From the NCBI GenBank assembly GCA_040954595.2, contig CM082597.2:3378014-3442013 (forward strand): 64,000 bases of DNA, written 5' to 3'. Numbering within the stretch: the stretch's first letter is position 1; every line of letters begins with the position of its first letter. The position numbers were made by a program, and so were the translations under genes. Shown here one piece after another: positions 3,001 to 53,930 of this stretch. The DNA comes from Balanoglossus misakiensis. Taxonomy: Eukaryota > Animalia > Hemichordata. The notes under the pieces are model-generated. The model had not been told where the DNA came from, did no database searches, and worked only from the letters and a program-made list of their open reading frames with translations.

Positions 3001-6000
3001 CATGGGTTAACCATCATGGTTTTTGTCGAAAAACCGCGAATTTTCGAGTTGCCGAATTTCGAGATTTTCGGCCGATTTGAACATTTTTCATGGGTTAACC
3101 ATCATGGTTTTTGTCGAAAAACCGCGAATTTTCGAGTTGCCGAATTTCGAGATTTTCGGCCGATTTGAACATTTTTTCATGGGTTAACCATCATGGTTTT
3201 TGTCGAAAAACCGCGAATTTTCGAGTTGCCGAATTTCGAGATTTTCGGCCGATTTGAACATTTTTCATGGGTTAACCATCATGGTTTTTGTCGAAAAACC
3301 GCGAATTTTCGAGTTGCCGAATTTCGAGATTTTCGGCCGATTTGAACATTTTTCATGGGTTAACCATCATGGTTTTTGTCGAAAAACCGCGAATTTTCGA
3401 GTTGCCGAATTTCGAGATTTTCGGCCGATTTGAACATTTTTCATGGGTTAACCATCATGGTTTTTGTCGAAAAACCGCGAATTTTCGAGTTGCCGAATTT
3501 CGAGATTTTCGGCCGATTTGAACATTTTTCATGGGTTAACCATCATGGTTTTTGTCGAAAAACCGCGAATTTTCGAGTTGCCGAATTTCGAGATTTTCGG
3601 CCGATTTGAACATTTTTCATGGGTTAACCATCATGGTTTTTGTCGAAAAACCGCGAATTTTCGAGTTGCCGAATTTCGAGATTTTCGGCCGATTTGAACA
3701 TTTTTCATGGGTTAACCATCATGGTTTTTGTCGAAAAACCGCGAATTTTCGAGTTGCCGAATTTCGAGATTTTCGGCCGATTTGAACATTTTTCATGGGT
3801 TAACCATCATGGTTTTTGTCGAAAAACCGCGAATTTTCGAGTTGCCGAATTTCGAGATTTTCGGCCGATTTGAACATTTTTCATGGGTTAACCATCATGG
3901 TTTTTGTCGAAAAACCGCGAATTTTCGAGTTGCCGAATTTCGAGATTTTCGGCCGATTTGAACATTTTTCATGGGTTAACCATCATGGTTTTTGTCGAAA
4001 AACCGCGAATTTTCGAGTTGCCGAATTTCGAGATTTTCGGCCGATTTGAACATTTTTCATGGGTTAACCATCATGGTTTTTGTCGAAAAACCGCGAATTT
4101 TCGAGTTGCCGAATTTCGAGATTTTCGGCCGATTTGAACATTTTTCATGGGTTAACCATCATGGTTTTTGTCGAAAAACCGCGAATTTTCGAGTTGCCGA
4201 ATTTCGAGATTTTCGGCCGATTTGAACATTTTTCATGGGTTAACCATCATGGTTTTTGTCGAAAAACCGCGAATTTTCGAGTTGCCGAATTTCGAGATTT
4301 TCGGCCGATTTGAACATTTTTCATGGGTTAACCATCATGGTTTTTGTCGAAAAACCGCGAATTTTCGAGTTGCCGAATTTCGAGATTTTCGGCCGATTTG
4401 AACATTTTTCATGGGTTAACCATCATGGTTTTTGTCGAAAAACCGCGAATTTTCGAGTTGCCGAATTTCGAGATTTTCGGCCGATTTGAACATTTTTCAT
4501 GGGTTAACCATCATGGTTTTGTCGAAAAACCGCGAATTTTCGAGTTGCCGAATTTCGAGATTTTCGGCCGATTTGAACATTTTTCATGGGTTAACCATCA
4601 TGGTTTTTGTCGAAAAACCGCGAATTTTCGAGTTGCCGAATTTCGAGATTTTCGGCCGATTTGAACATTTTTCATGGGTTAACCATCATGGTTTTTGTCG
4701 AAAAACCGCGAATTTTCGAGTTGCCGAATTTCGAGATTTTCGGCCGATTTGAACATTTTTCATGGGTTAACCATCATGGTTTTTGTCGAAAAACCGCGAA
4801 TTTTCGAGTTGCCGAATTTCGAGATTTTCGGCCGATTTGAACATTTTTCATGGGTTAACCATCATGGTTTTTGTCGAAAAACCGCGAATTTTCGAGTTGC
4901 CGAATTTCGAGATTTTCGGCCGATTTGAACATTTTTTCATGGGTTAACCATCATGGTTTTTGTCGAAAAACCGCGAATTTTCGAGTTGCCGAATTTCGAG
5001 ATTTTCGGCCGATTTGAACATTTTTCATGGGTTAACCATCATGGTTTTTGTCGAAAAACCGCGAATTTTCGAGTTGCCGAATTTCGAGATTTTCGGCCGA
5101 TTTGAACATTTTTTCATGGGTTAACCATCATGGTTTTTGTCGAAAAACCGCGAATTTTCGAGTTGCCGAATTTCGAGATTTTCGGCCGATTTGAACATTT
5201 TTCATGGGTTAACCATCATGGTTTTTGTCGAAAAACCGCGAATTTTCGAGTTGCCGAATTTCGAGATTTTCGGCCGATTTGAACATTTTTCATGGGTTAA
5301 CCATCATGGTTTTTGTCGAAAAACCGCGAATTTTCGAGTTGCCGAATTTCGAGATTTTCGGCCGATTTGAACATTTTTCATGGGTTAACCATCATGGTTT
5401 TTGTCGAAAAACCGCGAATTTTCGAGTTGCCGAATTTCGAGATTTTCGGCCGATTTGAACATTTTTCATGGGTTAACCATCATGGTTTTTGTCGAAAAAC
5501 CGCGAATTTTCGAGTTGCCGAATTTCGAGATTTTCGGCCGATTTGAACATTTTTCATGGGTTAACCACCATGGTTTTTGTCGAAAAACCGCGAATTTTCG
5601 AGTTGCCGAATTTCGAGATTTTCGGCCGATTTGAACATTTTTCATGGGTTAACCACCATGGTTTTTGTCGAAAAACCGCGAATTTTCGAGTTGCCGAATT
5701 TCGAGATTTTCGGCCGATTTGAACATTTTTCATGGGTTAACCATCATGGTTTTTGTCGAAAAACCGCGAATTTTCGAGTTGCCGAATTTCGAGATTTTCG
5801 GCCGATTTGAACATTTTTCATGGGTTAACCATCATGGTTTTTGTCGAAAAACCGCGAATTTTCGAGTTGCCGAATTTCGAGATTTTCGGCCGATTTGAAC
5901 ATTTTTCATGGGTTAACCATCATGGTTTTTGTCGAAAAACCGCGAATTTTCGAGTTGCCGAATTTCGAGATTTTCGGCCGATTTGAACATTTTTCATGGG

Positions 6001-9000
6001 TTAACCATCATGGTTTTTGTCGAAAAACCGCGAATTTTCGAGTTGCCGAATTTCGAGATTTTCGGCCGATTTGAACATTTTTCATGGGTTAACCATCATG
6101 GTTTTTGTCGAAAAACCGCGAATTTTCGAGTTGCCGAATTTCGAGATTTTCGGCCGATTTGAACATTTTTCATGGGTTAACCACCATGGTTTTTGTCGAA
6201 AAACCGCGAATTTTCGAGTTGCCGAATTTCGAGATTTTCGGCCGATTTGAACATTTTTCATGGGTTAACCATCATGGTTTTTGTCGAAAAACCGCGAATT
6301 TTCGAGTTGCCGAATTTCGAGATTTTCGGCCGATTTGAACATTTTTCATGGGTTAACCATCATGGTTTTTGTCGAAAAACCGCGAATTTTCGAGTTGCCG
6401 AATTTCGAGATTTTCGGCCGATTTGAACATTTTTCATGGGTTAACCATCATGGTTTTTGTCGAAAAACCGCGAATTTTCGAGTTGCCGAATTTCGAGATT
6501 TTCGGCCGATTTGAACATTTTTCATGGGTTAACCATCATGGTTTTTGTCGAAAAACCGCGAATTTTCGAGTTGCCGAATTTCGAGATTTTCGGCCGATTT
6601 GAACATTTTTCATGGGTTAACCATCATGGTTTTTGTCGAAAAACCGCGAATTTTCGAGTTGCCGAATTTCGAGATTTTCGGCCGATTTGAACATTTTTCA
6701 TGGGTTAACCATCATGGTTTTTGTCGAAAAACCGCGAATTTTCGAGTTGCCGAATTTCGAGATTTTCGGCCGATTTGAACATTTTTCATGGGTTAACCAT
6801 CATGGTTTTTGTCGAAAAACCGCGAATTTTCGAGTTGCCGAATTTCGAGATTTTCGGCCGATTTGAACATTTTTCATGGGTTAACCATCATGGTTTTTGT
6901 CGAAAAACCGCGAATTTTCGAGTTGCCGAATTTCGAGATTTTCGGCCGATTTGAACATTTTTCATGGGTTAACCATCATGGTTTTTGTCGAAAAACCGCG
7001 AATTTTCGAGTTGCCGAATTTCGAGATTTTCGGCCGATTTGAACATTTTTCATGGGTTAACCATCATGGTTTTTGTCGAAAAACCGCGAATTTTCGAGTT
7101 GCCGAATTTCGAGATTTTCGGCCGATTTGAACATTTTTCATGGGTTAACCATCATGGTTTTTGTCGAAAAACCGCGAATTTTCGAGTTGCCGAATTTCGA
7201 GATTTTCGGCCGATTTGAACATTTTTCATGGGTTAACCATCATGGTTTTTGTCGAAAAACCGCGAATTTTCGAGTTGCCGAATTTCGAGATTTTCGGCCG
7301 ATTTGAACATTTTTCATGGGTTAACCATCATGGTTTTTGTCGAAAAACCGCGAATTTTCGAGTTGCCGAATTTCGAGATTTTCGGCCGATTTGAACATTT
7401 TTCATGGGTTAACCATCATGGTTTTTGTCGAAAAACCGCGAATTTTCGAGTTGCCGAATTTCGAGATTTTCGGCCGATTTGAACATTTTTCATGGGTTAA
7501 CCATCATGGTTTTTGTCGAAAAACCGCGAATTTTCGAGTTGCCGAATTTCGAGATTTTCGGCCGATTTGAACATTTTTCATGGGTTAACCATCATGGTTT
7601 TTGTCGAAAAACCGCGAATTTTCGAGTTGCCGAATTTCGAGATTTTCGGCCGATTTGAACATTTTTCATGGGTTAACCATCATGGTTTTTGTCGAAAAAA
7701 CCGCGAATTTTCGAGTTGCCGAATTTCGAGATTTTCGGCCGATTTGAACATTTTTCAATGGGTTAACCATCATGGTTTTTGTCGAAAAACCGCGAATTTT
7801 CGAGTTGCCGAATTTCGGGATTTTCGGCCGATTTGAACATTTTTCATGGGTTAACCATCATGGTTTTTGTCGAAAAACCGCGAATTTTCGAGTTGCCGAA
7901 TTTCGAGATTTTCGGCCGATTTGAACATTTTTCATGGGTTAACCATCATGGTTTTTGTCGAAAAACCGCGAATTTTCGAGTTGCCGAATTTCGAGATTTT
8001 CGGCCGATTTGAACATTTTTCATGGGTTAACCATCATGGTTTTTGTCGAAAAACCGCGAATTTTCGAGTTGCCGAATTTCGAGATTTTCGGCCGATTTGA
8101 ACATTTTTCATGGGTTAACCATCATGGTTTTTGTCGAAAAACCGCGAATTTTCGAGTTGCCGAATTTCGAGATTTTCGGCCGATTTGAACATTTTTCATG
8201 GGTTAACCATCATGGTTTTTGTCGAAAAACCGCGAATTTTCGAGTTGCCGAATTTCGAGATTTTCGGCCGATTTGAACATTTTTCATGGGTTAACCATCA
8301 TGGTTTTTGTCGAAAACCGCGAATTTTCGAGTTGCCGAATTTCGAGATTTTCGGCCGATTTGAACATTTTTCATGGGTTAACCATCATGGTTTTTGTCGA
8401 AAAACCGCGAATTTTCGAGTTGCCGAATTTCGGGATTTTCGGCCGATTTGAACATTTTTCATGGGTTAACCATCATGGTTTTTGTCGAAAAACCGCGAAT
8501 TTTCGAGTTGCCGAATTTCGAGATTTTCGGCCGATTTGAACATTTTTCATGGGTTAACCATCATGGTTTTTGTCGAAAAACCGCGAATTTTCGAGTTGCC
8601 GAATTTCGAGATTTTCGGCCGATTTGAACATTTTTCATGGGTTAACCATCATGGTTTTTGTCGAAAAACCGCGAATTTTCGAGTTGCCGAATTTCGAGAT
8701 TTTCGGCCGATTTGAACATTTTTCATGGGTTAACCATCATGGTTTTTGTCGAAAAACCGCGAATTTTCGAGTTGCCGAATTTCGAGATTTTCGGCCGATT
8801 TGAACATTTTTCATGGGTTAACCATCATGGTTTTTGTCGAAAAACCGCGAATTTTCGAGTTGCCGAATTTCGAGATTTTCGGCCGATTTGAACATTTTTC
8901 ATGGGTTAACCATCATGGTTTTTGTCGAAAAACCGCGAATTTTCGAGTTGCCGAATTTCGGGATTTTCGGCCGATTTGAACATTTTTCATGGGTTAACCA

Positions 9001-12000
9001 TCATGGTTTTTGTCGAAAAACCGCGAATTTTCGAGTTGCCGAATTTCGAGATTTTCGGCCGATTTGAACATTTTTCATGGGTTAACCATCATGGTTTTTG
9101 TCGAAAAACCGCGAATTTTCGAGTTGCCGAATTTCGGGATTTTCGGCCGATTTGAACATTTTTCATGGGTTAACCATCATGGTTTTTGTCGAAAAACCGC
9201 GAATTTTCGAGTTGCCGAATTTCGGGTTTCGGCCGATTTGAACATTTTTCATGGGTTAACCATCATGGTTTTTGTCGAAAAACCGCGAATTTTCGAGTTG
9301 CCGAATTTCGGGATTTTCGGCCGATTTGAACATTTTTCATGGGTTAACCATCATGGTTTTTGTCGAAAAACCGCGAATTTTCGAGTTGCCGAATTTCGGG
9401 ATTTTCGGCCGATTTGAACATTTTTCATGGGTTAACCATCATGGTTTTTGTCGAAAAACCGCGAATTTTCGAGTTGCCGAATTTCGGGATTTTCGGCCGA
9501 TTTGAACATTTTTCATGGGTTAACCATCATGGTTTTTGTCGAAAAACCGCGAATTTTCGAGTTGCCGAATTTCGAGATTTTCGGCCGATTTGAACATTTT
9601 TCATGGGTTAACCATCATGGTTTTTGTCGAAAAACCGCGAATTTTCGAGTTGCCGAATTTCGAGATTTTCGGCCGATTTGAACATTTTCCATGGGTTAAC
9701 CATCATGGTTTTTGTCGAAAAACCGCGAATTTTCGAGTTGCCGAATTTCGAGATTTTCGGCCGATTTGAACATTTTTCATGGGTTAACCATCATGGTTTT
9801 TGTCGAAAAACCGCGAATTTTCGAGTTGCCGAATTTCGAGATTTTCGGCCGATTTGAACATTTTTCATGGGTTAACCATCATGGTTTTTGTCGAAAAACC
9901 GCGAATTTTCGAGTTGCCGAATTTCGAGATTTTCGGCCGATTTGAACATTTTTCATGGGTTAACCATCATGGTTTTTGTCGAAAAACCGCGAATTTTCGA
10001 GTTGCCGAATTTCGAGATTTTCGGCCGATTTGAACATTTTTCATGGGTTAACCATCATGGTTTTTGTCGAAAAACCGCGAATTTTCGAGTTGCCGAATTT
10101 CGAGATTTTCGGCCGATTTGAACATTTTTCATGGGTTAACCATCATGGTTTTTGTCGAAAAACCGCGAATTTTCGAGTTGCCGAATTTCGAGATTTTCGG
10201 CCGATTTGAACATTTTTCATGGGTTAACCATCATGGTTTTTGTCGAAAAACCGCGAATTTTCGAGTTGCCGAATTTCGAGATTTTCGGCCGATTTGAACA
10301 TTTTTCATGGGTTAACCATCATGGTTTTTGTCGAAAAACCGCGAATTTTCGAGTTGCCGAATTTCGAGATTTTCGGCCGATTTGAACATTTTTCATGGGT
10401 TAACCATCATGGTTTTTGTCGAAAAACCGCGAATTTTCGAGTTGCCGAATTTCGAGATTTTCGGCCGATTTGAACATTTTTCATGGGTTAACCATCATGG
10501 TTTTTGTCGAAAAACCGCGAATTTTCGAGTTGCCGAATTTCGAGATTTTCGGCCGATTTGAACATTTTTCATGGGTTAACCATCATGGTTTTTGTCGAAA
10601 AACCGCGAATTTTCGAGTTGCCGAATTTCGAGATTTTCGGCCGATTTGAACATTTTTCATGGGTTAACCATCATGGTTTTTGTCGAAAAACCGCGAATTT
10701 TCGAGTTGCCGAATTTCGAGATTTTCGGCCGATTTGAACATTTTTCATGGGTTAACCATCATGGTTTTTGTCGAAAAACCGCGAATTTTCGAGTTGCCGA
10801 ATTTCGAGATTTTCGGCCGATTTGAACATTTTTCATGGGTTAACCATCATGGTTTTTGTCGAAAAACCGCGAATTTTCGAGTTGCCGAATTTCGAGATTT
10901 TCGGCCGATTTGAACATTTTTCATGGGTTAACCATCATGGTTTTTGTCGAAAAACCGCGAATTTTCGAGTTGCCGAATTTCGGGATTTTCGGCCGATTTG
11001 AACATTTTTCATGGGTTAACCATCATGGTTTTTGTCGAAAAACCGCGAATTTTCGAGTTGCCGAATTTCGGGATTTTCGGCCGATTTGAACATTTTTCAT
11101 GGGTTAACCATCATGGTTTTTGTCGAAAAACCGCGAATTTTCGAGTTGCCGAATTTCGAGATTTTCGGCCGATTTGAACATTTTTCATGGGTTAACCATC
11201 ATGGGTTTTGTCGAAAAACCGCGAATTTTCGAGTTGCCGAATTTCGAGATTTTCGGCCGATTTGAACATTTTTCATGGGTTAACCATCATGGTTTTTGTC
11301 GCAAAACCGCGAATTTTCGAGTTGCCGAATTTCGAGATTTTCGGCCGATTTGAACATTTTTCATGGGTTAACCATCATGGTTTTTGTCGAAAAACCGCGA
11401 ATTTTCGAGTTGCCGAATTTCGAGATTTTCGGCCGATTTGAACATTTTTCATGGGTTAACCATCATGGTTTTTGTCGCAAAACCGCGAATTTTCGAGTTG
11501 CCGAATTTCGAGATTTTCGGCCGATTTGAACATTTTTCATGGGTTAACCATCATGGTTTTTGTCGCAAAACCGCGAATTTTCGAGTTGCCGAATTTCGAG
11601 ATTTTCGGCCGATTTGAACATTTTTCATGGGTTAACCATCATGGTTTTTGTCGAAAAACCGCGAATTTTCGAGTTGCCGAATTTCGAGATTTTCGGCCGA
11701 TTTGAACATTTTTCATGGGTTAACCATCATGGTTTTTGTCGAAAAACCGCGAATTTTCGAGTTGCCGAATTTCGAGATTTTCGGCCGATTTGAACATTTT
11801 TCATGGGTTAACCATCATGGTTTTTGTCGAAAAACCGCGAATTTTCGAGTTGCCGAATTTCGAGATTTTCGGCCGATTTGAACATTTTTCATGGGTTAAC
11901 CATCATGGTTTTTGTCGAAAAACCGCGAATTTTCGAGTTGCCGAATTTCGAGATTTTCGGCCGATTTGAACATTTTTCATGGGTTAACCATCATGGTTTT

Positions 12001-12560
12001 TGTCGAAAAACCGCAAATTTTCGAGTTGCCGAATTTCGAGATTTTCGGCCGATTTGAACATTTTTCATGGGTTAACCATCATGGTTTTTGTCGAAAAACC
12101 GCGAATTTTCGAGTTGCCGAATTTCGAGATTTTCGGCCGATTTGAACATTTTTCATGGGTTAACCATCATGGTTTTTGTCGAAAAACCGCGAATTTTCGA
12201 GTTGCCGAATTTCGAGATTTTCGGCCGATTTGAACATTTTTCATGGGTTAACCATCATGGTTTTTGTCGAAAAACCGCGAATTTTCGAGTTGCCGAATTT
12301 CGAGATTTTCGGCCGATTTGAACATTTTTCATGGGTTAACCATCATGGTTTTTGTCGAAAAACCGCGAATTTTCGAGTTGCCGAATTTCGAGATTTTCGG
12401 CCGATTTGAACATTTTTCATGGGTTAACCATCATGGTTTTTGTCGAAAAACCGCGAATTTTCGAGTTGCCGAATTTCGAGATTTTCGGCCGATTTGAACA
12501 TTTTTCATGGGTTAACCATCATGGTTTTTGTCGAAAAACCGCGAATTTTCGAGTTGCCGA
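1..12560. repeat. 88-bp tandem satellite array, ~143 copies; consensus GAAAAACCGCGAATTTTCGAGTTGCCGAATTTCGAGATTTTCGGCCGATTTGAACATTTTTCATGGGTTAACCATCATGGTTTTTGTC
   Basis: Directly visible. ORF-track starts recur every 88 nt, and monomers are nearly identical. The array runs off the left edge of the window. Confidence 0.99.
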
Positions 12561-12850
12561 ATATTGATTTTTTGGGCATTTTTCATGGGTTATACATCAT
12601 GATTTTTTCCAAAAAATGACAAATTTTCGAGTTAATACATCATGATTTTTGTCTTATTTTCGATTATTTCATGGTTAATACATTATATTTAAAATGCCCA
12701 AAAAATCAATATTTGGTGTTCAGGTCATTTTTCGACATTTTTATGAGTTATGCTCATGAAAATTGTCAAAAGATGACAAATTCCTGTCTTTACGAGTTTT
12801 GGTGTTTTTGTCATATTACGGCATTTTTCATGGGTTATAGTTCATAAAAA
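12561..12850. repeat. Degenerate satellite monomers at the array boundary
   Basis: Diverged copies of the monomer motifs, e.g. CATTTTTCATGGGTTATACATCATGATTTTT, AAATTTTCGAGTT and GGCATTTTTCATGGGTTATAG. Confidence 0.85.
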
Positions 12851-14844
12851 TTGTCACCTTGGTAGATTAGGGCGGGTTATTTCGTTACTCGAGTTGATGA
12901 ATATAAAAGTGGCAAAATATTAATGGAGCTAAACCGTTACGAAACCCGTATACTTACCGTGGTTAAGATCCCTTTAACGCTAAATTGAATACTTGCCAAC
13001 TGTACTTGAAAGACAAATATGCTTTTTACAGCACGAGCACTAAATAAATCAAGTTGTTTCATAGTATTAATTAATGTATGTCTCGTAAGATTGTATTTTT
13101 CTTTATATAATACTAAGTTGTTAGCGATCGCCTTCTTATGAGACAAAGTGGAAAACCCCGCGAGATTTTACGCTTGAGAAAAATCCCAACAAAACTACTT
13201 GCCCCCTTACGCTATAACTGACTGTATCTAGAGACTAAAGTATTTGAACAAAGCCGTTTATAAACACTCGATATGAGTTATTGTCGGCGACGGAGATTGA
13301 CCTCGACCCTTCACTTTTTACACAATGGAAAACTGTCCTGTTGATAACAATGGATAACCGCGTCGTCCTTTGACTTGTTGCGGTGTTTGAGGCAACGTTC
13401 GACTCTCCCCACATAACAGAAACGTTTTGTTAGAAATTCTTATATTTTTAAATCTTAAATCTGAATCTTAAAACCGTCTCCATTCTGCTGGACGCACTGT
13501 CGACTTTGTTTGCAAATACAATTATAGCACATGTAGGTACAAGTGTAATAACAAACGCTGTGAATCTTTTGTATAATTAGGCATACTTAAGAATTTTACA
13601 ACCACATGACCTGTTCAAAAATTAGACGGGCACGCTTGATTAAATTTTTACCTATTTGCTAATTAAATTTATATAGATTCCTGTCCTTCCAGCGTGTATA
13701 GCCAAAAACGCACCTAATCACATTTGAAACTGACCTCGATAATTTGTATACGTACGTTCTAAAATTAAATAATGTCTGAAATCGGGTAAATAGAATTCAA
13801 AGTTTTGGTGCACCAATTTGCTATCACAAAACAAGAAAAAAATATGTGATTGATGTCGATAACTTCAAGTCTTCATAGTTCAATCGCACTTCGAAGCCTC
13901 AAGTTAAGTCTGCCGACAATTACGAGTGACATTTCGTGCGTCTGTATAAAATGTTTCGTGCATACTGATGACATTTTGCCCAGTAGTTACCTCTAAGAAC
14001 GTGTAATTGTGAATTCAACTCACCTTGAAATGACCAAAATTTGTTTCCAGCGTCGCAGAACAGCCTTGAATGCGAGACATGCAGGTTACTTATGTCTAGA
14101 TACCGATTAGCTGTGTTGGTAGGGACCAGCGTCTGTCCACATGATTGTTGGCAGGCACCACTGTCGATCCATGCGAAGACAATAACCTTTTGTGTTTTTG
14201 TACATCACAATGGGGAGATGCCACCAACCAACAATCACTTCGCTTCCAATAGTGTCCTCAGAGTAGTGTATTTTCTTGCATTTAACTTCCCCACCAAGAA
14301 AACTTCCAGGTTGATCATGAACTTTGAGTTATTGTTTTATACCTTGGTACTTTCAACGTATACATTTACACTTCGATGCAGTTTCTTACATACACCAGAC
14401 TATTCAAATCAGTTCATCATTTTATAGACATTCACTCATACTGTGCTCATCACAGGGCCCAATTTTAATTTAGATGCACTGTCATTTATGACGCAGCAAT
14501 TATTTACAAATTTCTTCTTTTCTACATGGGTCCAGGATCCTTACATATGAATGTCACAGGTAGTGAGTATAGGGAAATTGCACACAGAAAAACACAAAAA
14601 CATAAACATATATCCTAAAAATGAGTTTTATTTACTAGTGTCATTATCAATGAAAATCGCCTTATATTTTCATACATACATTGTATATTATATATTGCTG
14701 CTTATGATTTTTGTTCTGTCAGTAAGAAAGGACAGTAGCAAAAATAGATAATTGATTACATTATTTTTACACATACAAACTTACTTGCATTTGTTAGATG
14801 TGTGTTCTCATGACAAAATTAATACTCCTATAATTCAAAATGGC

Positions 14845-17800
14845 CTAGGTCAGGCCAAAAAAATTTGTTGCATTTTCTGTTGTTGCCTTGGCAACTTCTT
14901 CTGGTTGAAGTTTCATGGAAAACGCAATGATGCGATTCAACACTCCCAATGAACAGGGCTCATTGCGATGTCCGTTGCAAAATTCTCTGAGGAGTCTCTG
15001 CATCTTGTCGAGTTCCTTCTTGGCGTCGTCTTTGTAGATGGCCTTTCCGCGCGGAGTGCCGGAGAACTTCCTGACGTCCGGGAATAAGAACGGCGCGTCC
15101 GTCTCTATCATGAGTTTGTCCAGGGGCAGCTCCTGTTCCATCAGGCACTTGAGGACACCATCCGTGGAATGGTCCTTGCACAGAAATCCTGAAAGATTGA
15201 CAACACATTAAAAACCATTCTGAAGCAAAGCACATCTAGGAAAACAGTCACAACTGAACAGATTTCTCAGGTCCCATCGCACATAAAACACTTTAAAGGT
15301 ACAAAGCCTCTCATTTTCATGAATTTTGTTTGATATGAAAAGTTGTTCCTGTTGTCTGACTACTTGAAACATGCTGAAATACTGGTGAACATTACTTAAC
15401 TTGTAGAAGAAAACGTTGAACATTCAAACTATGTTTCAGACAAAATTTTAAGCTGTCTGATATTATCAGCGTTGATAAAATGTCTGATGCAGTTACTTAC
15501 CAGTCAGACCAACATAGAATCCCAAATCTAAATACGCCTTGAGTTCCTTCACTGTGCCGGTAAAACAATGGATGACCACTTTGGGCAAATCATCTTTGTA
15601 TTTTTCCATGATTTTCGTCAGGGAATCGAACGCTTTCCGTTCATGGACAAACATTGGTTTCTTCAGCCGACATGCAAGTTGTATCTGGAATGGATATTTT
15701 CATAAAGAGGTAATAAATAACACCATCAAAAATAGTTATATATAAATATTCCTGCAGTTACAATGGAGTAGAGCAGGGAAATATATAAACAGCAACTTTA
15801 TGGTGTGTATGCATGATTTGCTTCTTTGCTGTCATTGCCTATTTAAATAAAATGAGTACATGTATTGATATGTTTCACATGTGAATGCGTATCTTCAATT
15901 TCAGATCATGCCTACTGTTCCTTATAAGACGATGCCTGATTGGTTGTTTTGGCCACAGTGTGAAATTTGAGAGTGACCTTCTGTGATTGGTGAGATAAAC
16001 TCTACAGGCTACAATAATAGCTGGCAAGGTTAAATATGTTGCCTATTACTACAGCTGATTTCAATCCGATCTGGAACAGGGATGCATCTTTTAACGAACT
16101 CACCTGCTTCTCAAACACTTGTTCTTGCGCATCGGGAGGAGAGAAATTCCGCTCGAAATCGAGACCAGTCTCGCCAACGGCAACACAGGCAGGGTCCTGC
16201 AGTAGCTTCTCCAGTTCGGCTTCTGAGTTGTCTTTCCAGTTCTTCGCGTCATGTGGATGGACACCTTGGAGAGCACAACAAAATGCATGTCATCGCTTTA
16301 CGTGTACTTCTCACGCAGGGTGTACACTCAACACAGTTATAACACAGCACGGGTCGATCCAAATCAATTGTTTCTAGGGTAGAGCTGGACCATTATACAG
16401 AGATAAATGGGGTGAAAGAGTTAAAATTAAGTGTATTCTTACCTGCAGTAAAATAGAAGTAGTCTTTATCTGAAGATGCCAGCTTCTGCGCTTCATGACT
16501 TGTTCTCAGCGATGTCCCAGTAATGATTACCTTTTTGACACCAAACATCTTGGCTCTCTGAAGGATGTTAAAATAAATATTTGATTAATCATTAAAATGT
16601 GAATTTTATACACCTCAAGTGAAGTTGGTTTTTATCTTTGACGCAAGTTCATTTTTGATGCAAAGGATTAATCATACGAGTTTACAAATGGCAAATAGTG
16701 TCTCTGAAATGTTTCTTGTTCTACCCAGTGTGAACAGGGTAATAGACGCACGTGTAGACTTTCCAACACAAACATGTTTCTTACACTGACAACCCCTTTT
16801 ATGTTATTCTTCAGGGACGGATGTGTCAGGTTAGCGCCGATATCCACAATTTCCGGCCAGTTGCTCTCCTCCAGTTGGTGTACGTGAGCTGGAACATAGC
16901 GTCCTCTATATGGCTGTGACTTATACGCTCCAGTTCCTCGGTCAGAAAATTTGTACTTGGTTTCTGCAGCATGGTGTCCTTCGCGGGCAACTTCAACCTT
17001 GAGCTTTCTCCCTTCTAAATCTCTAAAACAGAAGAAAAACGCTATTATTTACAGATGTAAGTATGTACATATGTGGCTGGCTTTGTTGGCAATATTTGGC
17101 ACAGAAAAAAGGTCTTGGTAATTTTAAACATATCCTACCACATTATTTACACGACTGCACCAATATCCCCCAACCCTTATTGTGTCATTAAAGAAAAGTT
17201 AGAATGCATCGAAATCCATATGGAATGAGTGTGTGATCCTGCCATACATAGTCTAGAATCCAGATTAGTTTTTGTGCTGTGCTTTTGCTAAACTTGGAGC
17301 ATTGTGAAAAATCTCACCGGATATTCCCGAGGTAAAATTATAAGACTTTCGAGATACATGAAGCATGTGTGGAGTGACCGTGCATGAACTCAACCGTACA
17401 ATACTTTGAGTATTATTCATCATATAATAAATCCACCTACGTCTGATTGTATTCCAGGATTTTCTCTTCCATGGCGACAGGTACATCGACAAAACCATAT
17501 CCCCTTGATCGTCCTGAGTTGTCCATAATCACTTGTACACTGGCGATTCCCGATGACCATTCTTGCTTGATTTGAAGATATTCCACCAGTTGATCTGTCC
17601 TTACTTTAAAAGGAAGATTTCCTATATTATACAAAGAGAAAAAAACATCGCATCAGCTCTCAGTGTAACCCTGCGTACAGGTCTCTGTGTTCCCGGCGTT
17701 ACACGGCCTCCACCACCGTGTAACGCCGGGAACACACAGACCTGTACGCAGAGCTACACTCTCAGTGGTAAACAAACACATGTACAGACGTACACAGCGA

Positions 17801-18058
17801 AATGTGTGTAACGGACTGTATGCTGGCCAGCCGATACGATAACTGAGGGCTAACTCGTTTTTCGTGAGTTAGTTAGTGAGTCAGTGAGTGGGAGAACGGG
17901 GGGACAAGGAAGCGAGAGCATATACATACACGATCCGGCAGTCTTGTCATTACAAATCGAGGTGAAGCGAGAATGAATTGAAAGTGACTAGTTTGAACAA
18001 CAATAATTTGTTTACCTACGAATATCCTTTTCATGTCAGTCGTTGACAATGATGACAT
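14845..18058 (-). CDS. RRM-domain / TatD-family nuclease fusion protein (421 aa, 7 coding exons)
   Basis: Exons (minus strand): 18058-18016, 17621-17441, 17022-16785, 16557-16443, 16264-16104, 15684-15501, 15188-14845. All introns are GT-AG with consistent phases; total 1266 nt, open. RRM: RNP2 KRIFVGNLPF, RNP1 RSRGYGFVDV, beta4 DLEGRKLKVEVAR. TatD: IVDIGANLTH, AGVHPHDAK, VAVGETGLDF, PMFVHER, VVIHCFTG, GFYVGLTGFLCK, LMIETDAPF, RNEPCSL. Confidence 0.92.
17664..17758. mobile_element. 95-bp hairpin MITE-like insertion in intron 1 of the RRM-TatD gene, flanked by a 7-bp duplication CTCTCAG
   Basis: Arms 17662-17706 and 17716-17760 are reverse complements (3 mismatches in 45 bp) with a 9-nt loop. 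CTCTCAG lies at 17657-17663 and 17759-17765. A related copy is at ~53853-53930. Confidence 0.8.
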
Positions 18059-18742
18059 TGCGAAAATATGTATATATATATATATATCTTCTGAAGTTAT
18101 AGATTATTTCTCCTGAAAAACAACCAGCTCAAGAGTCAGAATTTATCAGAAAGCATTCACCACTGTTGCGTTGAGCCATGAGTTTGCAATGTACATGTGG
18201 AAAGTGTCAGACTCTTGTGAAATCACGACCTTTGACCTGAGTCAGGTGACAAACTCCCATCATGCACTGTAAACGTCACATCCGCTTATCGGAATATTTT
18301 GAAATCGAGTTGTGCTGTGTTTGGTTTCATAGACGTCGTGTATTGCGGAGCTGATTTCTACAATTGGCAGATGCCCCAAGGAAAAGTCATTGGGGTTATT
18401 TGAGAGAGCGACTTTACCTGAGAGGGAAATCACTGCCCGATTGCGATTTTATTCGCTTGGCGAGGATTTTGCACACAGGATTCGGCACTCGTGTGCTGAG
18501 ACGAGACGCGATCGATTCTCCGTGTCGCTTATGGTAAAGCTTTCTGTGGTCGATGACATTTCTCAAGCTTGATCGGACACTGTCGGGTACTGTGCGTGTA
18601 ATTTGACATTGCTGGGAGCAAACACACTTGTAAGTTCTCTGGTTTATAATTCACAAAGGAACAATCGTTGGTATTTTTCGATCGGCCAGTTCAATTTATA
18701 GCGGACGATCTTGCCTTGTTGAGCTGAGAACTGTATTACAAG
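18059..18742. promoter_or_regulatory. Putative bidirectional promoter / 5'UTR region between RRM-TatD and IFT57
   Basis: The two ATGs diverge 684 bp apart, and the segment ~18270-18600 is CpG-rich. TSSs cannot be determined from sequence. Confidence 0.6.
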
Positions 18743-21700
18743 ATGTCCGATGAACAGCAACGACGTGGTGACGGGGGTAGTGGCGGTGCGGACGGTGGCC
18801 CGGGCATGATGTATATGCCCTTCGTAGTAATGGAAGATTTACTGGACAAGTTGAAGTTGTTGAATTACGAAGAGGACTTCCTTCGCGGCGTTGGCTTCAA
18901 GCCGTTGTCAAGGTAACGTGCGATACTTCCGGTCAAGATCTGACCATGTATGTTTCTTCGTTTTTTATGTATGTTTCCTCATGATTACCTCAATAATTTA
19001 TCATATAAACTTTATCCTATTTTTTTCTGCATTTTGCATTGTAGTCGTGTAATACTAGATCTGTTATTTTTGAGATATTTATTGTACATGTTAATTTATC
19101 ATTTTGACAGGCACTACTTTGCCATTCAAACCAACCCAGGAGAACAATTCTTCATGTTTACATCACTCTCTGCTTGGATGATCAATCTTACCGGCAAACA
19201 TTTCGACACTCCGCAAGAGGTGAGCAATCTACATTTGTATTCATTAAAATGGGTGCATTAGAACGCACCATTTGGGGGGGGGGGGGGTGACCGTGTATTA
19301 TATTGTGATCTCTGAAATACTATGATAGATAATTGATTTTATGTGGTGTTAGATGCTTAAATGCAGTTACTGCAGAATATCAGAAGCAAAACGAAAATGA
19401 TGATTTACCTCACAAAGTCTGCGAAAAAAGTTCATTTAATCATGATTTTCTGATGAGATCAAACATAACCTGTTTTCCTTGCCATTTCAGTATGACGACC
19501 CGAATGCCACCATATCCAGCATCTTGGATGAGCTGCGTCAGTTGGGGTCCACCGTGGATTTCCCGCCTGCCAAGCTGAAATCCGGATTCGGTGAGCACGT
19601 CATCTATGTGCTGGACAAGTTTGCTGACGAGGCCTTGAAACAGACCAACTTCACCTGGAATAGGTAAGTCAGGATTTCAGTGATGAGGAGCGACAAGTAG
19701 GAGAAGTTGATACAAGTACTTCACTTGTAGGGAAAATATAAGCATTGAACAAATGATGACCACTGACAACAAACTGAATTTTCAACCCAAATACAGACCA
19801 ACTTGATGCATACAATCATAATACAGAGAAGAAAAAAAAAATTGCCAATATTATAACCACTGCACAGGTAGACTACATGTAATACTGGTACATGAAAATA
19901 GCATTCATAAAGTAAGGCAAAACCTGTGTACACTACAACAGGTATGTTCAACTGAAAATAAGCACTGCAACTTTTCCTTTGATTTCTCACAGACCTGTTT
20001 ATCCGGAAGAAGAGATGGAGGAAGAATCCACCATGGATGACGATGCGGAATTGACTCTGGATAAAGTGGAAGAGGAAATGGGGGTAAGTTTATCCCGGAT
20101 GTTGTTATCCGAGAACATGGAATTGTGAGGGTGGGATCATGGAAGTTCAGATGGGTGGGTTGATGTTGGCATGATCCATGGCATTACATAACATACAATG
20201 TGTGTATTCATCTGTTCTTTGCATTTTAGAATGACTATGATGATATCGAAGAAGAAGAAAGTTTCCTTGATCTGGAAGGCTTGAAGAACTTAAAAAATAA
20301 ATCTGTAAGTAGAATTAAAAACAGAATTGCAATACTTTTAGTTTTGAAGTCAATTTGCTAGTGTGCATACACCATCCTCTATTGATCATATTGATAGCAG
20401 CGTGTGATACTAGTATGTTTAATGGTAATAACACTTACTTCTCTTCCCCCCCCCCCCCCCCCCTTCACAGGAGAGCAGTGAGCTGAGCAAACCCCAGGAA
20501 ATAATGGAATCAACCACGGACGCCATCGACTGGCGACTCGAAGTGGAGAGAGTCCTGCCCTCCCTAAAAGTGACCATCCGTACCGACAACAAAGACTGGC
20601 GAACTCACGTCGACCAGATGCACCAACACAGAGACGGCATTGAACAATCTCTGTCACAGACCAAGGTGTGTCTTGTGACCATCCACAGGGAAAAATAGAA
20701 CCTCACACACCTAAGGACCTGGGATCAGATTTCTCACATGAGTTTTTAATGACAAAATATCCTTGAAGAGTGTGAGAAATCCTATCCCAGGTCCTTGGTG
20801 TGTGAGATTCTATTTCTAAAATGACTATAAACATCTCAAATTCAGACTTGAAACATTGAATAAATGACTATGTAAGTGTCGTCTGCCAGATTGTAGTTTC
20901 TGTCCATGTATTACACAATAATTAGCACTCATTAGACTCAGCACTCGTGTCATATAACACTTTTTAGTCTACGAGAATGTGGGATAGGTTTTACATTGCC
21001 TGAGTCTCATACATTGTGCATAAACTATTCATAGTAAGATCTTGCTGTGTTGAGTTGCACGTACATGTACTGACAATGCATGGAATGCTGTGTCTTCCAG
21101 GGCCATCTGGATAAACTCCACCAGGAGATCTCCCGAACTCTGGAGAAGATCAACAGCCGGGAAAAGTACATCAACAACCAACTGGAGCATTTACTTGGGG
21201 AATTTAGACACATGCAGGATTCGCTGGCTGAAGTATGTACACGATTGCGACCATGTTGATGTGTTTATAATTAACCCCTCCACCACCATGGTTCAGTCAA
21301 AACCCATTGTTTTGTATGGTAAGGTTGGACCTCTACAAAGGAGACTGGGGGTGAAAGGGTTCAAGTTTCTTTCAGTTTTACTAATCTAGTGTTCAACTTT
21401 GCTTTCTAGGTAAAGGAGCAGTACAGGCAAGCTAGTGGTGGAGTCACCGAGCGAAGTCGTACACTGGCCGAGATTTCAGAAGATTTAGAAAAAGTCAAAC
21501 AGGAAATGGAAGAGAGGGGTTCTAGTATGACAGATGGAGGTAATGATAAAGTCTACTTATATGGCACACATGAAATATGGACAGAAGTAAAGACTGTTGA
21601 ATGCGTTGATCACAAAATTTGCCTACATTTGGATTGGACATAATGTTTGTCAGCACAAACTTATGCGCATGTGTATAAAATGATCACCGGGCTTTAAAGA

Positions 21701-22034: not shown

Positions 22035-22460
22035 TTAAAGGGGGAGTGATGTCTGAACTGCAACTTTTTCCCAATGTTCAGGGGAACCTTTCACATGTTA
22101 TATTAAAATAACTTGAAATGTGATAAAATGTAGCAATGCATTGATGTACAGTGTAATACAAAGTAACAACCACATTGTTTGCATTGATGTACATTGTAGC
22201 AGTTACACTACAATGTAATACAAAGTAACAACCACATTGTTTGCAATGATGTACACTGTAGCAGTTACACTACAGTGTAATACAAAGTAACAACCACATT
22301 GTTTGCAATGATGTACTTTGTAGCAGTTACACTACAGTGTAATACAATGTAACAACCACATTGTTTGCATTGATGTACATTGTAGCAGCTACACTACATT
22401 GTTATACAAAGTAACAACCACATTGTTTGCAGTGATGTACATTGTAGCAGTTACACTTTG
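22035..22460 (+). mobile_element. Non-autonomous element (TTAAAGGGG start) carrying a 62-bp minisatellite (~5 copies, 22140-22457), downstream of the IFT57 stop
   Basis: Unit CATTGTAGCAGTTACACTACAGTGTAATACAAAGTAACAACCACATTGTTTGCAATGATGTA; AAGTAACAAC recurs at 22161, 22223, 22285 and so on. The same leader and unit occur at 47711 and 60357. Confidence 0.75.
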
Positions 22461-22826: not shown

Positions 22827-23367
22827 GTTGTTGTCAATTGTGATCTGTTGTGGATATACTTAGTAATTGAATGATCGGAGGTTTGGTTGTTACCAAGGCG
22901 TTCTTACACTCTTACACTGTTCAAAACACTATCTTGTTTTGCATGCAAACAAAAGTAAGACATGAAATATATATAAAACAGGTCACACTCTCACAGATGT
23001 CATATGGAATTTTTAAATCAAAATTCTGTTCACATGACCCTTGTAGACTTTCTATAAAAAAATGATTATCCTTAGAGAATAAATGAACAAATAAGTAGAT
23101 TTACTTTTCTTTGCGACTTGCTTTATGAATTGGTACGGTCAATATGGTGAATCTACGCCCATGGCATTTGAAAAAAAATGGCATATCTTATAAATAGGAA
23201 ACAAACCCTCTAACATAACAAGAATTAACAATATGGAACTCAGTCCATGAGTGGCAGGTAAAGTACGGCGATGGGTGACGTCATATGTGTTTACAATCTC
23301 GCGGTAATCTAGGTGACCATACTAGTACATTACACGTACATGGTTGGTTTCAAGTCTTTATGTGATC

Positions 23368-25581
23368 ATGGCGCACAGAGACTCTGATATTTTGGATGAA
23401 CTTGACGAGAACGCTTTGTCGTGCCCGATCTGCTTAGAGCGATATGATAATGCCAAAGTTTTGCCCTGTATGCACAGTGTCTGTGAGAAGTGTCTGGTGA
23501 AGTGGGCTGACAAACATGGATCGCTGCAGTGTTCCGTTTGTCGACGCCATTTTGACATGCCAGAAGGGGGCATCGCCGAACTTACGCCGAGCTACTTCAT
23601 CAACAGTGTTGTTGAAATGGTATCTAAGAGGGACGGGAAGGGCGAAAAGGCGTGTGAAATATGCGAAGAGGAGGAGCCGATCACCGACAGGTGCATAGAA
23701 TGTGCAAAATATCTTTGCCGACGGTGTGGAAAAGGTCATCTAAAAATACCTTTCCTATCACATCATCAGGTTATGCCTGTAGATGAATATCGAGAGGTCA
23801 GCTGCAGGTCAGGCTCGGAGTCCTCTGGCGTGCAACTGGCGGCAGTTCAGTGCAAGACACATCGTGAGAACCAAGTCAAGTTCTTCTGTAAGCAGTGTAC
23901 TATTCCAGTTTGCTTAGAGTGCACGGTCATCGAGCACAGGGCTCCCGAGCACGATCTGATGAGTCTGCAGGCAGCCAAGGAAGAATATGAGACAGACCTG
24001 AAGAATTCGATGCAAGAATTGAAAACGAAAGAAGGCGAATTCACAGAAACTGTCAGCGTTCTCCAGAAGGCGTTCGACAACACGACAGGTCGGTTGAAGG
24101 ATGAAGAAGAGAAGATTGCAAAATGGACTGACAATGTCCTGGATGTGGTGAAGGGCCAGCGAGACGCCATGTTGCACTCGCTGCAAGGTGTGTATGCATC
24201 GAACCAAAAAGAACTGCAGTGTAAGATTGATGAAGCTGAGAGAATGAGAGTTGACGCCCACAATTTGCTTGCATACATGGACAGACTGATGCGATTTGGG
24301 AATGCTGGACAGCTTCTGGCAACACGGAAAGAAAGCAGTGAGCGATTGAACGAGCTCCTTGCATTTCCAAGCTTGGGCAAAGATTGTAATGTGGGTATAA
24401 ATGATACTAGCTTTACACCAAACCGAAAGCTAAGCAATCTTCAGCTGGGGTCTTTGCAACCAGACCCTTCAAGATCATCTATCGATGTTTCGACAGTTCC
24501 TGACATCGTTAGATTTAACGAAGAAATCGAAATCGCCGTGAAGTTGTCACACTCTCATGGCCAGTATGTCTCTGCGAAAGATATCGGCCTGGCTGCTGAA
24601 GTGATCTTCCCAAATGACACCACCAAAGAGGTCGACCTAACCCAAGCAAAGGTGGAGGGTGATACATTTCACTTTAAACTCTCAACTAGTGTGGAAGGTG
24701 CTCACAACCTCAAAGTGAAGGTGAATGACGTCGAAGTGAAGAACTCGCCCTGTATCATCTATGCCATACCAAAGAAGGGAACCACAACTACCATAGGAAA
24801 ACAGGGGAAATGTCCTGGTCAGTATAACGGTCCAAGAGGCATCGCCAAATCACCTGATGGAGATCTCTTTGTCGCTGATCGGCACAATAATCGTGTCCAG
24901 CGACTGGGCAAAAATTTCCACCATAAACGTACAATCACATTTGTTGATTTCAGTGATCCCTTTGAACCATGGGGGATCACCCTGTCGGCTGATCGGCTTT
25001 TCATCACTGATGTTAAAAATAAGCAGATCTTGGTGTGTGACCACAATGGCACATTGAAAAAGATAATCGGCCAGGGTAACTTAAATGAACCATGTGGAAT
25101 TTCTCTTAATCAAGCCAGCAACATATTGTATGTCGCAAATTTCCACGCGCATAACATACTTATGTTGAAAACAAACGGAGATTATGTAAAACATTTTGGC
25201 AGCTCTGGGTTTGGTCCAGGGCAGTTTAAAAACCCATTTGATGTTTGCATTAACTCCAAAGGTCAAGTCCTTGTGTCCGACTACAATAACCACCGCATCC
25301 AGATGTTCAACGAGAATGGCAGCTTTTTGTGCATATTTGGTTCTAAGGCAGTAAAACTTCCCGAAATTGTTGGCCTGGCATTAGGCACCAATGGTAATGT
25401 GTACACATCAGTCAGAAACAGCCTAACTATACGAATCTACGACGACGGTTATTTAATTGAGACTATAACCAAAGAGTTTCAGTGTAAACTCTTTGGTATG
25501 GTCGTGACAAGAGATGCACCACTTGGCAAAATTATCGTATGCGATGCACACAATAATTGTCTCAGAGTGATCCAACAGTAA
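23368..25581 (+). CDS. TRIM-NHL E3 ubiquitin ligase (RING, B-box1, B-box2, coiled coil, filamin, NHL repeats; TRIM2/3/71-like), single coding exon, 737 aa
   Basis: First ATG at 23368. RING CPICLERY..PCMHSVCEKC..CSVC; B-box1 CEIC..CIECAKYLCRRCGKGH; B-box2 CKTH..FFCKQCTIPVCLECTVIEH; coiled coil; filamin-like EGAHNLKVKVNDVEVKNSPC; NHL repeats GQYNGPRGIA..LFVADRHNNRVQ and GQFKNPFDVCINSKGQVLVSDYNNHRIQMF. Confidence 0.93.
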   Translation: MAHRDSDILDELDENALSCPICLERYDNAKVLPCMHSVCEKCLVKWADKHGSLQCSVCRRHFDMPEGGIAELTPSYFINSVVEMVSKRDGKGEKACEICEEEEPITDRCIECAKYLCRRCGKGHLKIPFLSHHQVMPVDEYREVSCRSGSESSGVQLAAVQCKTHRENQVKFFCKQCTIPVCLECTVIEHRAPEHDLMSLQAAKEEYETDLKNSMQELKTKEGEFTETVSVLQKAFDNTTGRLKDEEEKIAKWTDNVLDVVKGQRDAMLHSLQGVYASNQKELQCKIDEAERMRVDAHNLLAYMDRLMRFGNAGQLLATRKESSERLNELLAFPSLGKDCNVGINDTSFTPNRKLSNLQLGSLQPDPSRSSIDVSTVPDIVRFNEEIEIAVKLSHSHGQYVSAKDIGLAAEVIFPNDTTKEVDLTQAKVEGDTFHFKLSTSVEGAHNLKVKVNDVEVKNSPCIIYAIPKKGTTTTIGKQGKCPGQYNGPRGIAKSPDGDLFVADRHNNRVQRLGKNFHHKRTITFVDFSDPFEPWGITLSADRLFITDVKNKQILVCDHNGTLKKIIGQGNLNEPCGISLNQASNILYVANFHAHNILMLKTNGDYVKHFGSSGFGPGQFKNPFDVCINSKGQVLVSDYNNHRIQMFNENGSFLCIFGSKAVKLPEIVGLALGTNGNVYTSVRNSLTIRIYDDGYLIETITKEFQCKLFGMVVTRDAPLGKIIVCDAHNNCLRVIQQ

Positions 25582-53852: not shown

Positions 53853-53930
53853 CTAGCCTTTCGTATACAGGTCTGTGTGTTCCCAGCGCTACACGACCGG
53901 GAACACATAACACTGTACACAGGACTACTA
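53853..53930. mobile_element. Degenerate copy of the 17664-17758 hairpin MITE
   Basis: TACAGGTCTGTGTGTTCCCAGCGCTACACG...CCGGGAACACATAACACTGTACACAG matches the arms of the intronic copy. Confidence 0.7.

What the first reader, a model, noticed from the sequence alone, without database searches (positions are those of the whole stretch)
14845..18058. RRM-TatD fusion: an RNA-binding domain joined in frame to an intact TatD nuclease
Seen in sequence: seven GT-AG-bounded exons splice into one 421-aa ORF. A canonical RRM (IFVGNL, RGYGFVDV, DLEGRKLKVEVAR) is followed by a ~45-aa linker and a full TatD barrel. The RRM beta4 strand and the TatD first motif (IVDIGANLTH) share one exon (17022-16785), so the fusion does not depend on joining two neighbouring genes. 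Established: E. coli TatD, C. elegans CRN-2 and human TATDN1/3 are essentially single-domain metal-dependent nucleases (3'-5' exonuclease/AP endonuclease; apoptotic DNA degradation for CRN-2). I do not recall a described RRM-TatD architecture. Inference: the RRM could direct the nuclease to specific RNA, R-loops or ssDNA, giving an RNA-targeted nuclease for RNA decay, genome maintenance or defence. The ORF track misses it because it is split into fragments.
Basis: partly seen in the sequence, partly recalled or inferred. Interest (0 to 1): 0.85.

Follow-up and report, generated by a model that had tools for sequence, protein, structure and literature searches.

The report
RNA-binding TatD nuclease of invertebrate animals
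This acorn-worm-type gene joins an RNA-binding-type domain to an intact TatD nuclease, an arrangement shared with other acorn worms, starfish and an annelid but absent from the insect and nematode versions, which suggests that this little-understood enzyme family likely works on RNA in animals.

Summary
Seven GT-AG exons (minus strand, 18058-14845) give a 421-aa protein: RRM, 44-aa linker, group I TatD barrel with all seven E. coli active-site residues. It is no one-off. The same architecture is in three acorn-worm families, two starfish, an annelid (eroded RRM) and six unnamed sequences, two of them intronless contigs. None of 62 named arthropod, nematode, tardigrade and amphioxus relatives has the RRM. 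The best tree makes the RRM ancestral and lost in ecdysozoans, but a single RRM-bearing clade is not rejected (p-AU 0.29). Non-animal relatives are fused to RNA cyclase, Tpt1, 2H, RNase T, CCCH, S4 and a separate RRM. Best reading: an RRM-tethered, Mg-dependent 3'-5' exonuclease for single-stranded RNA (inferred, 0.55). The gene models are already in RefSeq, named only as TatD; ten literature searches found no description. No RNA run is listed for this DNA, so its junctions are unconfirmed. The scan had not noted this before.

The parts
18016..18058 (-). Exon 1 (43 nt): start codon at 18058, first RRM strand
   Evidence: Ptychodera residues 12-22 match weakly
17441..17621 (-). Exon 2 (181 nt): end of RNP2, helix 1, strands 2-3 with RNP1 (17505-17482), helix 2
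   Evidence: RRM_1; 84% to Ptychodera
16785..17022 (-). Exon 3 (238 nt): RRM strand 4, 44-aa linker (16982-16851), TatD strand 1 with the group I G-x-N motif (16841-16833)
16443..16557 (-). Exon 4 (115 nt): TatD barrel
16104..16264 (-). Exon 5 (161 nt): His195, His197, Glu224 (E. coli H62, H64, E91)
15501..15684 (-). Exon 6 (184 nt): His260, His285 (E. coli H127, H152)
14845..15188 (-). Exon 7 (344 nt): Glu336, Asp338 (E. coli E201, D203), a helical insertion of about 25 aa shared with acorn-worm relatives, stop codon
14627..14632 (-). AATAAA about 210 nt after the stop: candidate polyadenylation signal (a variant ATTAAA starts at 14469)
   Evidence: not tested with RNA
17662..17760 (.). Hairpin in intron 1: 45-nt arms, 93% complementary, 9-nt loop, ending about 40 nt before the exon 2 acceptor; likely a small mobile element
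   Evidence: a 30-nt partial copy at 53866-53895

Best explanation
A real seven-exon gene of an acorn worm (inferred from its nearest relatives) encodes an RRM joined by a predicted flexible linker to an intact group I TatD barrel, and it likely works as an RNA-tethered, magnesium-dependent 3'-5' exonuclease that trims or degrades single-stranded RNA. Shown: the reading frame, the two domains, the conserved active-site and RNA-stacking residues, and the spread across invertebrates. Inferred: the RRM sheet (Phe13, Arg54, Tyr56, Phe58) holds a few unpaired bases, the linker gives reach, and the free 3' end enters the barrel. The RRM would supply the affinity and choice of substrate that the weak stand-alone enzyme lacks. 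The fusion is likely at least as old as bilaterian animals and was likely lost on the line to insects and nematodes, which is why model organisms do not show it.
For: Active site: all 7 residues mutated in E. coli TatD (PMC4176340, passages) are kept in the window and the three acorn worms; closest solved sequences and folds are E. coli TatD and its P. putida kin (171 bits against 103 for human TATDN1; Foldseek E 4e-20). E. coli TatD digests ssRNA as well as ssDNA and is described as having low activity. RRM: AlphaFold model of the Ptychodera protein gives the four-strand two-helix order at block pLDDT 70-91 and a linker under 50; it matches solved RRMs. RNP2 position 2 and RNP1 position 5 are aromatic in 10 of 13 RRM-bearing rows. 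The RRM is 63/79 identical to Ptychodera, against 214/289 for the barrel and 22/44 for the linker. Linkers are basic in 11 of 13 rows, with RGG repeats in P0016, L001, L002. Among 62 extended proteins scanned out of 150 top hits, partners at or above the Pfam cut-off include RNA 3'-phosphate cyclase (5, one clade), Tpt1 (1), 2H ligase/phosphoesterase (1), RNase T (1), CCCH finger (2), S4 (1) and a separate RRM in a chytrid. No methionine lies between residues 65 and 158, and joining exon 1 to exon 3 shifts the frame to a stop, so no RRM-less barrel with its first strand can be read from these exons.
Against: No activity or binding was measured. RRMs also bind ssDNA and proteins (established knowledge), and every in vivo role reported for this branch is on DNA (CRN-2 in apoptosis, E. 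coli TatD in peroxide repair). The RRM drifts faster than the barrel over long times (27/79 against 172/289 to Saccoglossus), has lost its aromatic residues in 3 of 13 rows, and is absent from 62 of 62 other named animal rows, so it is dispensable for the core job. The window's own linker has net charge 0 and no RGG. The last two catalytic acids are changed in 5 of 13 RRM-bearing rows. Some partner domains are not RNA-related (DUF4326 x3, histidine phosphatase, AIG2-like) and some fusions on unnamed contigs may be gene-calling merges. The ancestral-and-lost history is not statistically secured (p-AU 0.291).
Confidence: 0.55

Rival explanations
1. The RRM binds single-stranded DNA and the protein is a DNA repair or apoptotic DNA-clearing nuclease like CRN-2 and E. 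coli TatD, only more processive.
For: Reported roles of group I TatD enzymes are on DNA: 3'-5' exonuclease, AP endonuclease, apoptotic fragmentation. The RRM-less nematode and arthropod proteins fall in the same animal clade (98/96). RRMs such as hnRNP A1 bind ssDNA (established knowledge).
Against: The other partners fused to this TatD group are mostly RNA-processing or RNA-binding domains; a mouse study found no evidence of DNA degradation by TATDN1 in vivo and placed it in the cytoplasm (PMC12505432, passages).
Confidence: 0.2
2. The RRM does not feed the active site; it places the enzyme (on ribonucleoprotein particles or a protein partner) or holds it in check until RNA binds.
For: The linker is long, variable (39-191 aa) and predicted disordered; the RRM surface is eroded in the annelid-containing group while the barrel stays intact there.
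Against: The base-stacking residues are kept in 10 of 13 rows across distant groups, which fits nucleic-acid binding; this does not separate tethering from localisation.
Confidence: 0.15
3. In part of the family the barrel is no longer a nuclease and the protein is an RNA-binding scaffold or 3'-end sensor.
For: The E201/D203 pair, needed in E. coli, is changed in both starfish, P0016, L001 and L002, which keep good RRMs.
Against: The window protein and the three acorn worms keep every residue; the equivalent residues of human TATDN1 are dispensable (PMC10085689, passages).
Confidence: 0.07
4. The fusion is a gene-model artefact: an RRM gene and a TatD gene side by side.
For: Support in this species is by DNA only, and the named relatives are predicted proteins.
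Against: One exon carries parts of both domains; the linker is conserved in frame in three families; L001 and L002 hold the whole RRM-TatD frame without introns.
Confidence: 0.02

Closest known systems
E. coli TatD (ExoXI; group I TatD; PDB 4p5u, 1xwy)
   Same: TIM barrel, G-x-N motif, all seven tested active-site residues; best solved match by sequence and fold; cuts ssDNA and ssRNA 3' to 5' (PMC4176340).
   Different: Single domain of about 260 aa; no RRM, linker or helical insertion before the C-terminal motif.
C. elegans CRN-2 and Drosophila CG3358 (listed as TatD counterparts in PMC11574390)
   Same: Nematode and arthropod TatD proteins fall in one animal clade with the window protein (98/96). 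That CRN-2 and CG3358 themselves belong there is recalled, not tested: neither sequence was retrieved.
   Different: The ecdysozoan proteins retrieved lack the RRM (median N-terminal extension 24 aa); the reported role of CRN-2 is apoptotic DNA degradation.
Human TATDN1 (group I)
   Same: Same motif group; UniRef labels the acorn-worm and starfish proteins 'TATDN1'.
   Different: Scores far lower than E. coli TatD (103 against 171 bits; 28% against 37% identity in the fold match); no RRM. The label looks like an automatic transfer; no tree with TATDN1 was built.
Human TATDN2 (group II)
   Same: A TatD with an N-terminal extension that acts on RNA (3' exonuclease, R-loop RNA strand; PMC10711561 abstract): the best functional precedent.
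   Different: HxH motif group, a different clade (PMC10085689); no RRM is mentioned for it in the passages seen.
RRM-bearing 3'-5' exoribonucleases such as PARN (recalled, not looked up)
   Same: An RRM attached to a 3'-5' exonuclease core is thought to raise binding and processivity.
   Different: Unrelated DEDD catalytic fold; an analogy only.

Membership tests
TatD DNase family (PF01026) | Pfam match over the barrel | tested here: met
   Exons 5-7 39-57 bits each; relatives 213-227 bits over profile 1-253
TatD DNase family (PF01026) | TIM-barrel fold like solved TatD | tested here: met
   Model of the Ptychodera protein, not of the window's own spliced protein; Foldseek to 4p5u E 4e-20, TM 0.88 by target
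Group I TatD (E. coli TatD, TATDN1) | (G/A)xN motif on strand 1 in place of HxH | tested here: met
   Gly137-Ala-Asn139; definition from PMC10085689
Group I TatD (E. coli TatD, TATDN1) | H62, H64, E91, H127, H152, E201, D203 equivalents | tested here: met
   7 of 7: H195, H197, E224, H260, H285, E336, D338
Group I TatD (E. coli TatD, TATDN1) | Mg-dependent 3'-5' exonuclease / AP endonuclease activity | not testable with these tools
   needs an assay
TATDN1 orthologues proper | Closer to human TATDN1 than to bacterial TatD | tested here: not met
   By similarity only: 103 against 171 bits; no tree with TATDN1
TATDN2/TATDN3 (group II) | HxH motif | tested here: not met
   G-x-N present instead
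CRN-2-type animal TatD | One clade with nematode and arthropod TatD | tested here: met
   34-row clade, 98/96
CRN-2-type animal TatD | C. elegans CRN-2 itself lies in that clade | not tested
   sequence not retrieved; membership recalled
RRM (PF00076) | Pfam match at the cut-off | tested here: inconclusive
   Window exon 2 alone 20.2 bits against 20.7; Ptychodera 23.5, Glandiceps 26.5, P0016 34.6 pass; Asterias 20.5, P0015 18.4, Saccoglossus 13.0 fall short; Patiria, Lamellibrachia, P0021, P0023 undetected at E 0.05
RRM (PF00076) | RNP2 and RNP1 with aromatic stacking residues | tested here: met
   F13, R54, Y56, F58; last RNP1 position is Val followed by Pro; consensus recalled
RRM (PF00076) | Four strands and two helices in RRM order | tested here: met
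   Model residues 15-92 of the Ptychodera protein; fold matches to solved RRMs at TM 0.7-0.8 by target
RRM (PF00076) | Binds RNA | not testable with these tools
   needs binding assay or CLIP

The most novel reading that the evidence does not exclude
The E. coli-type TatD lineage of eukaryotes is at heart an RNA 3'-end processing enzyme that cleans up broken or damaged RNA ends alongside the healing and sealing enzymes it is repeatedly fused to (RNA 3'-phosphate cyclase, Tpt1, 2H phosphoesterase). The ancestral animal form carried an RRM to find its RNA, and CRN-2 and its insect relatives, studied as apoptotic DNases, are truncated descendants. The RRM-TatD protein would then be the tool for finding the natural RNA substrate of a family misnamed as DNases.
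Probability: 0.2. Interest if true: 0.8.

Novelty: new variant of a known kind. Interest (0 to 1): 0.55.

Why it matters
[quoted passage not shown] A conserved animal form with its own RNA-binding domain makes the question testable, because the RRM can be used to pull out the natural substrate and removed to see what it adds. It also suggests that worm and fly studies have looked at a shortened version of the animal enzyme. Both domains are well known and the gene models are public, so this is a new architecture with a good lead, not a new system.

Tried and rejected
RNA runs: none was listed for window 14600-18300; no evidence either way, and no reads were laid. No whole genome is held for the window, so paralogues elsewhere in this genome could not be sought; within the window there is one TatD copy. 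Exon 3 alone found no homologue (0 of 23 candidates) although true relatives exist, which shows how insensitive the word search is; the same search missed P0015 and P0016 even when they were in the query alignment, so absence of molluscs, sea urchins, named cnidarians or vertebrates from the lists is weak evidence. ESM Atlas gave nothing for exon 3 (best 0.82) and only plain TatD clusters for P0016 (best 0.83). The donor family of the RRM could not be named: solved RRMs of many kinds score alike. A donor-like site early in exon 2 (17606) and skipping of exon 2 were considered as routes to an RRM-less protein and rejected: both put exon 3 out of frame (phases). The one-clade test did not reject a single RRM-bearing clade. 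A recalled review on RNA repair systems is not held in the library, so a mention of TatD fusions there cannot be excluded. PMC12582537 and PMC12699882 (passages) were not relevant. The supplement of PMC10085689 held as text had no hit for six terms; its supplementary tree is a figure that could not be seen and may place CRN-2. Earlier scan notes held other TatD fusions but not this one. No complex prediction was run.

Full report
Observation. On the minus strand, exons 18058-18016, 17621-17441, 17022-16785, 16557-16443, 16264-16104, 15684-15501 and 15188-14845 are separated by six GT-AG introns of 178-419 nt and give 421 codons and a stop. Scanned exon by exon (6 exons given; exon 1 is too short), exon 2 matches RRM_1 just under the cut-off and exons 5-7 match TatD_DNase. 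Exon 3 has a single open frame that runs from the last RRM strand through a 44-aa linker into the first TatD strand. There is no methionine between residues 65 and 158, and both skipping exon 2 and using the donor-like site at 17606 put exon 3 out of frame, so these exons cannot give a complete barrel without the RRM. No RNA run is listed for this DNA, so the junctions rest on splice signals and homology.

Nearest relatives. A search with exon 7 returned 11 proteins among 274 candidates; the best three are from the acorn worms Ptychodera flava, Glandiceps talaboti and Saccoglossus kowalevskii (71, 65, 55% identity; 423-431 aa), three different families. All are RefSeq predictions named only 'TatD-like exonuclease'. 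They align to the model over its whole length, linker included; identity to Ptychodera is 63/79 in the RRM, 22/44 in the linker and 214/289 in the barrel, and to Saccoglossus 27/79, 10/44 and 172/289. The window is thus most likely an acorn worm close to Ptychodera (98/92 in the tree); this is inference.

Range. A profile of those three against 1.84 billion representatives gave 27,939 hits; 7 of the best 150 carry this RRM: Glandiceps, the starfish Patiria, the annelid Lamellibrachia and unnamed P0015, P0016, P0021, P0023. A second search with ten sequences listed 120 of 6,967 hits, 7 with the RRM, adding Asterias. The other 62 rows with an organism name (61 arthropods, nematodes and a tardigrade; one amphioxus) have no trace of it. 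A scan of metagenome contigs, stopped at 7 of 64 parts, gave two contigs, L001 and L002, each with an uninterrupted RRM-TatD frame of 435 and 437 aa flanked by non-coding ends; they look like transcripts, though their source type is not known. The searches are insensitive and crowded by arthropods, so the range is a lower bound.

One origin? A profile of the six acorn-worm and starfish RRMs scores the P0015/P0016/L001/L002 group at 47-57 bits, the Lamellibrachia/P0021/P0023 group at 14-22, and the unrelated chytrid RRM at 6; the reverse profile gives 32-43 for acorn worms and starfish, 32 for Lamellibrachia. All 13 have a proline right after RNP1. Only one control RRM was at hand, and ordinary RRMs reach 22-27 bits against a single sequence, so the link of the eroded group rests partly on position. 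In a maximum-likelihood tree of the barrel alone (44 rows chosen from 187 in a first FastTree run), 34 rows form one clade (98/96) whose inner order resembles animal phylogeny: an unnamed RRM group first, then annelid-containing, starfish-plus-acorn-worm, amphioxus and ecdysozoan branches. That reads as an RRM present at the base and lost in ecdysozoans and perhaps amphioxus. But the deep forks are weak (92/79, 80/69), and forcing the 13 RRM rows together, with P0063 (no N-terminal extension, on a 1-kb contig, taken as a fragment), is not rejected (p-AU 0.291). An old RRM-bearing paralogue beside an RRM-less one remains possible. Either way the fusion would predate the split of annelids and deuterostomes if it arose once.

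Anatomy and mechanism. The barrel is group I (G-x-N in place of HxH; definition in PMC10085689, passages). It keeps all seven residues tested in E. coli TatD (PMC4176340, passages; mapping), and E. coli TatD is its closest solved relative by sequence (171 bits; human TATDN1 103) and fold. That enzyme is a Mg-dependent 3'-5' exonuclease for ssDNA and ssRNA with low activity. A model of the Ptychodera protein (three-sequence alignment, mean pLDDT 72.5, pTM 0.61) shows an RRM fold at 15-92, a low-confidence linker at 101-134 and the barrel. The RRM keeps the usual base-stacking residues (F13, Y56, F58, with R54); they are kept in 10 of 13 rows and eroded in the annelid-containing three. The simplest mechanism is tethering: the RRM holds single-stranded RNA and the barrel trims its 3' end. 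This is inferred. Against it: the family's reported in vivo roles are on DNA, RRMs can bind ssDNA or protein, the RRM is dispensable in ecdysozoans, and the last two catalytic acids are altered in 5 of 13 RRM rows, though their equivalents are dispensable in human TATDN1.

A wider pattern. Of the 150 top hits, the 62 with extra length were scanned with Pfam. Besides the animal RRM, the barrel is fused to RNA 3'-phosphate cyclase (5 rows, one clade, two named as oomycetes), Tpt1, a 2H ligase/phosphoesterase, RNase T (a chytrid), CCCH fingers (2 at the cut-off, 2 weak), S4 and an independent RRM (the chytrid Geranomyces). Seven of the 150 have N-terminal extensions with five or more RG pairs. 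Non-RNA partners also occur (DUF4326 x3, a histidine phosphatase, AIG2-like x3), and single fusions on unnamed contigs may be merges. Still, repeated recruitment of RNA-end enzymes and RNA-binding modules is independent support for an RNA substrate and suggests the bolder reading, a role in cleaning damaged RNA ends.

What is known. Ten full-text searches were read as listings: TatD with RRM gave 22 papers and TatD with 'RNA recognition motif' and exonuclease gave 1, none on such a protein by title or abstract start; TatD with 'terminal phosphate cyclase' gave 2, and the one opened mentions them separately. The library lacks most subscription papers. Precedent for an RNA-directed TatD exists in human TATDN2 (PMC10711561, abstract and outline), a group II enzyme. 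A review table lists CRN-2 and CG3358 as TATDN1 counterparts (PMC11574390, passages); by similarity this animal clade is nearer E. coli TatD than TATDN1. A mouse study calls DNA degradation by TatD proteins in living cells unproven (PMC12505432, passages).

Verdict. Real, conserved, apparently undescribed domain architecture of two well-known parts, already sitting unremarked in public gene models. New variant of a known kind; interest 0.55.

Noticed in passing
window 18728-20698 and onward, + strand: An IFT57 gene (Pfam PF10498 in three exons) starts head to head with the RRM-TatD gene; about 680 nt separate the two likely start codons, so a shared two-way promoter is likely.
   Followed up: partly
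window 279-12562: An 88-nt satellite, 139.6 copies at 99% identity, with a degenerate edge to 12650; it ends about 2.2 kb beyond the gene's stop codon.
   Followed up: no
window 23326-25581, + strand: An intronless 751-codon frame for a TRIM-NHL protein (RING, B-box, filamin-like, NHL repeats).
   Followed up: partly
window 45140-46372, - strand: An intronless rhodopsin-family receptor frame of 410 codons.
   Followed up: partly
window 22147-22457 and 60513-60753: Two arrays of the same 62-nt unit (5.0 and 3.9 copies), likely a dispersed repeat.
   Followed up: no
proteins P0032, P0034, P0057, P0120, P0157: TatD fused to RNA 3'-terminal phosphate cyclase, one clade; two are named as oomycetes (Phytophthora, Aphanomyces). 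No description found.
   Followed up: partly
proteins P0020, P0082, P0125, P0060, P0024, P0055, P0159: Single TatD fusions with Tpt1, 2H ligase/phosphoesterase, RNase T, S4, CCCH fingers and an independent RRM; not checked at the DNA level.
   Followed up: partly
P0013, P0181, P0016, L001, L002: RRM-TatD relatives in which the last catalytic Glu and/or Asp is replaced by Gln/Asn: possibly changed or lost activity.
   Followed up: partly
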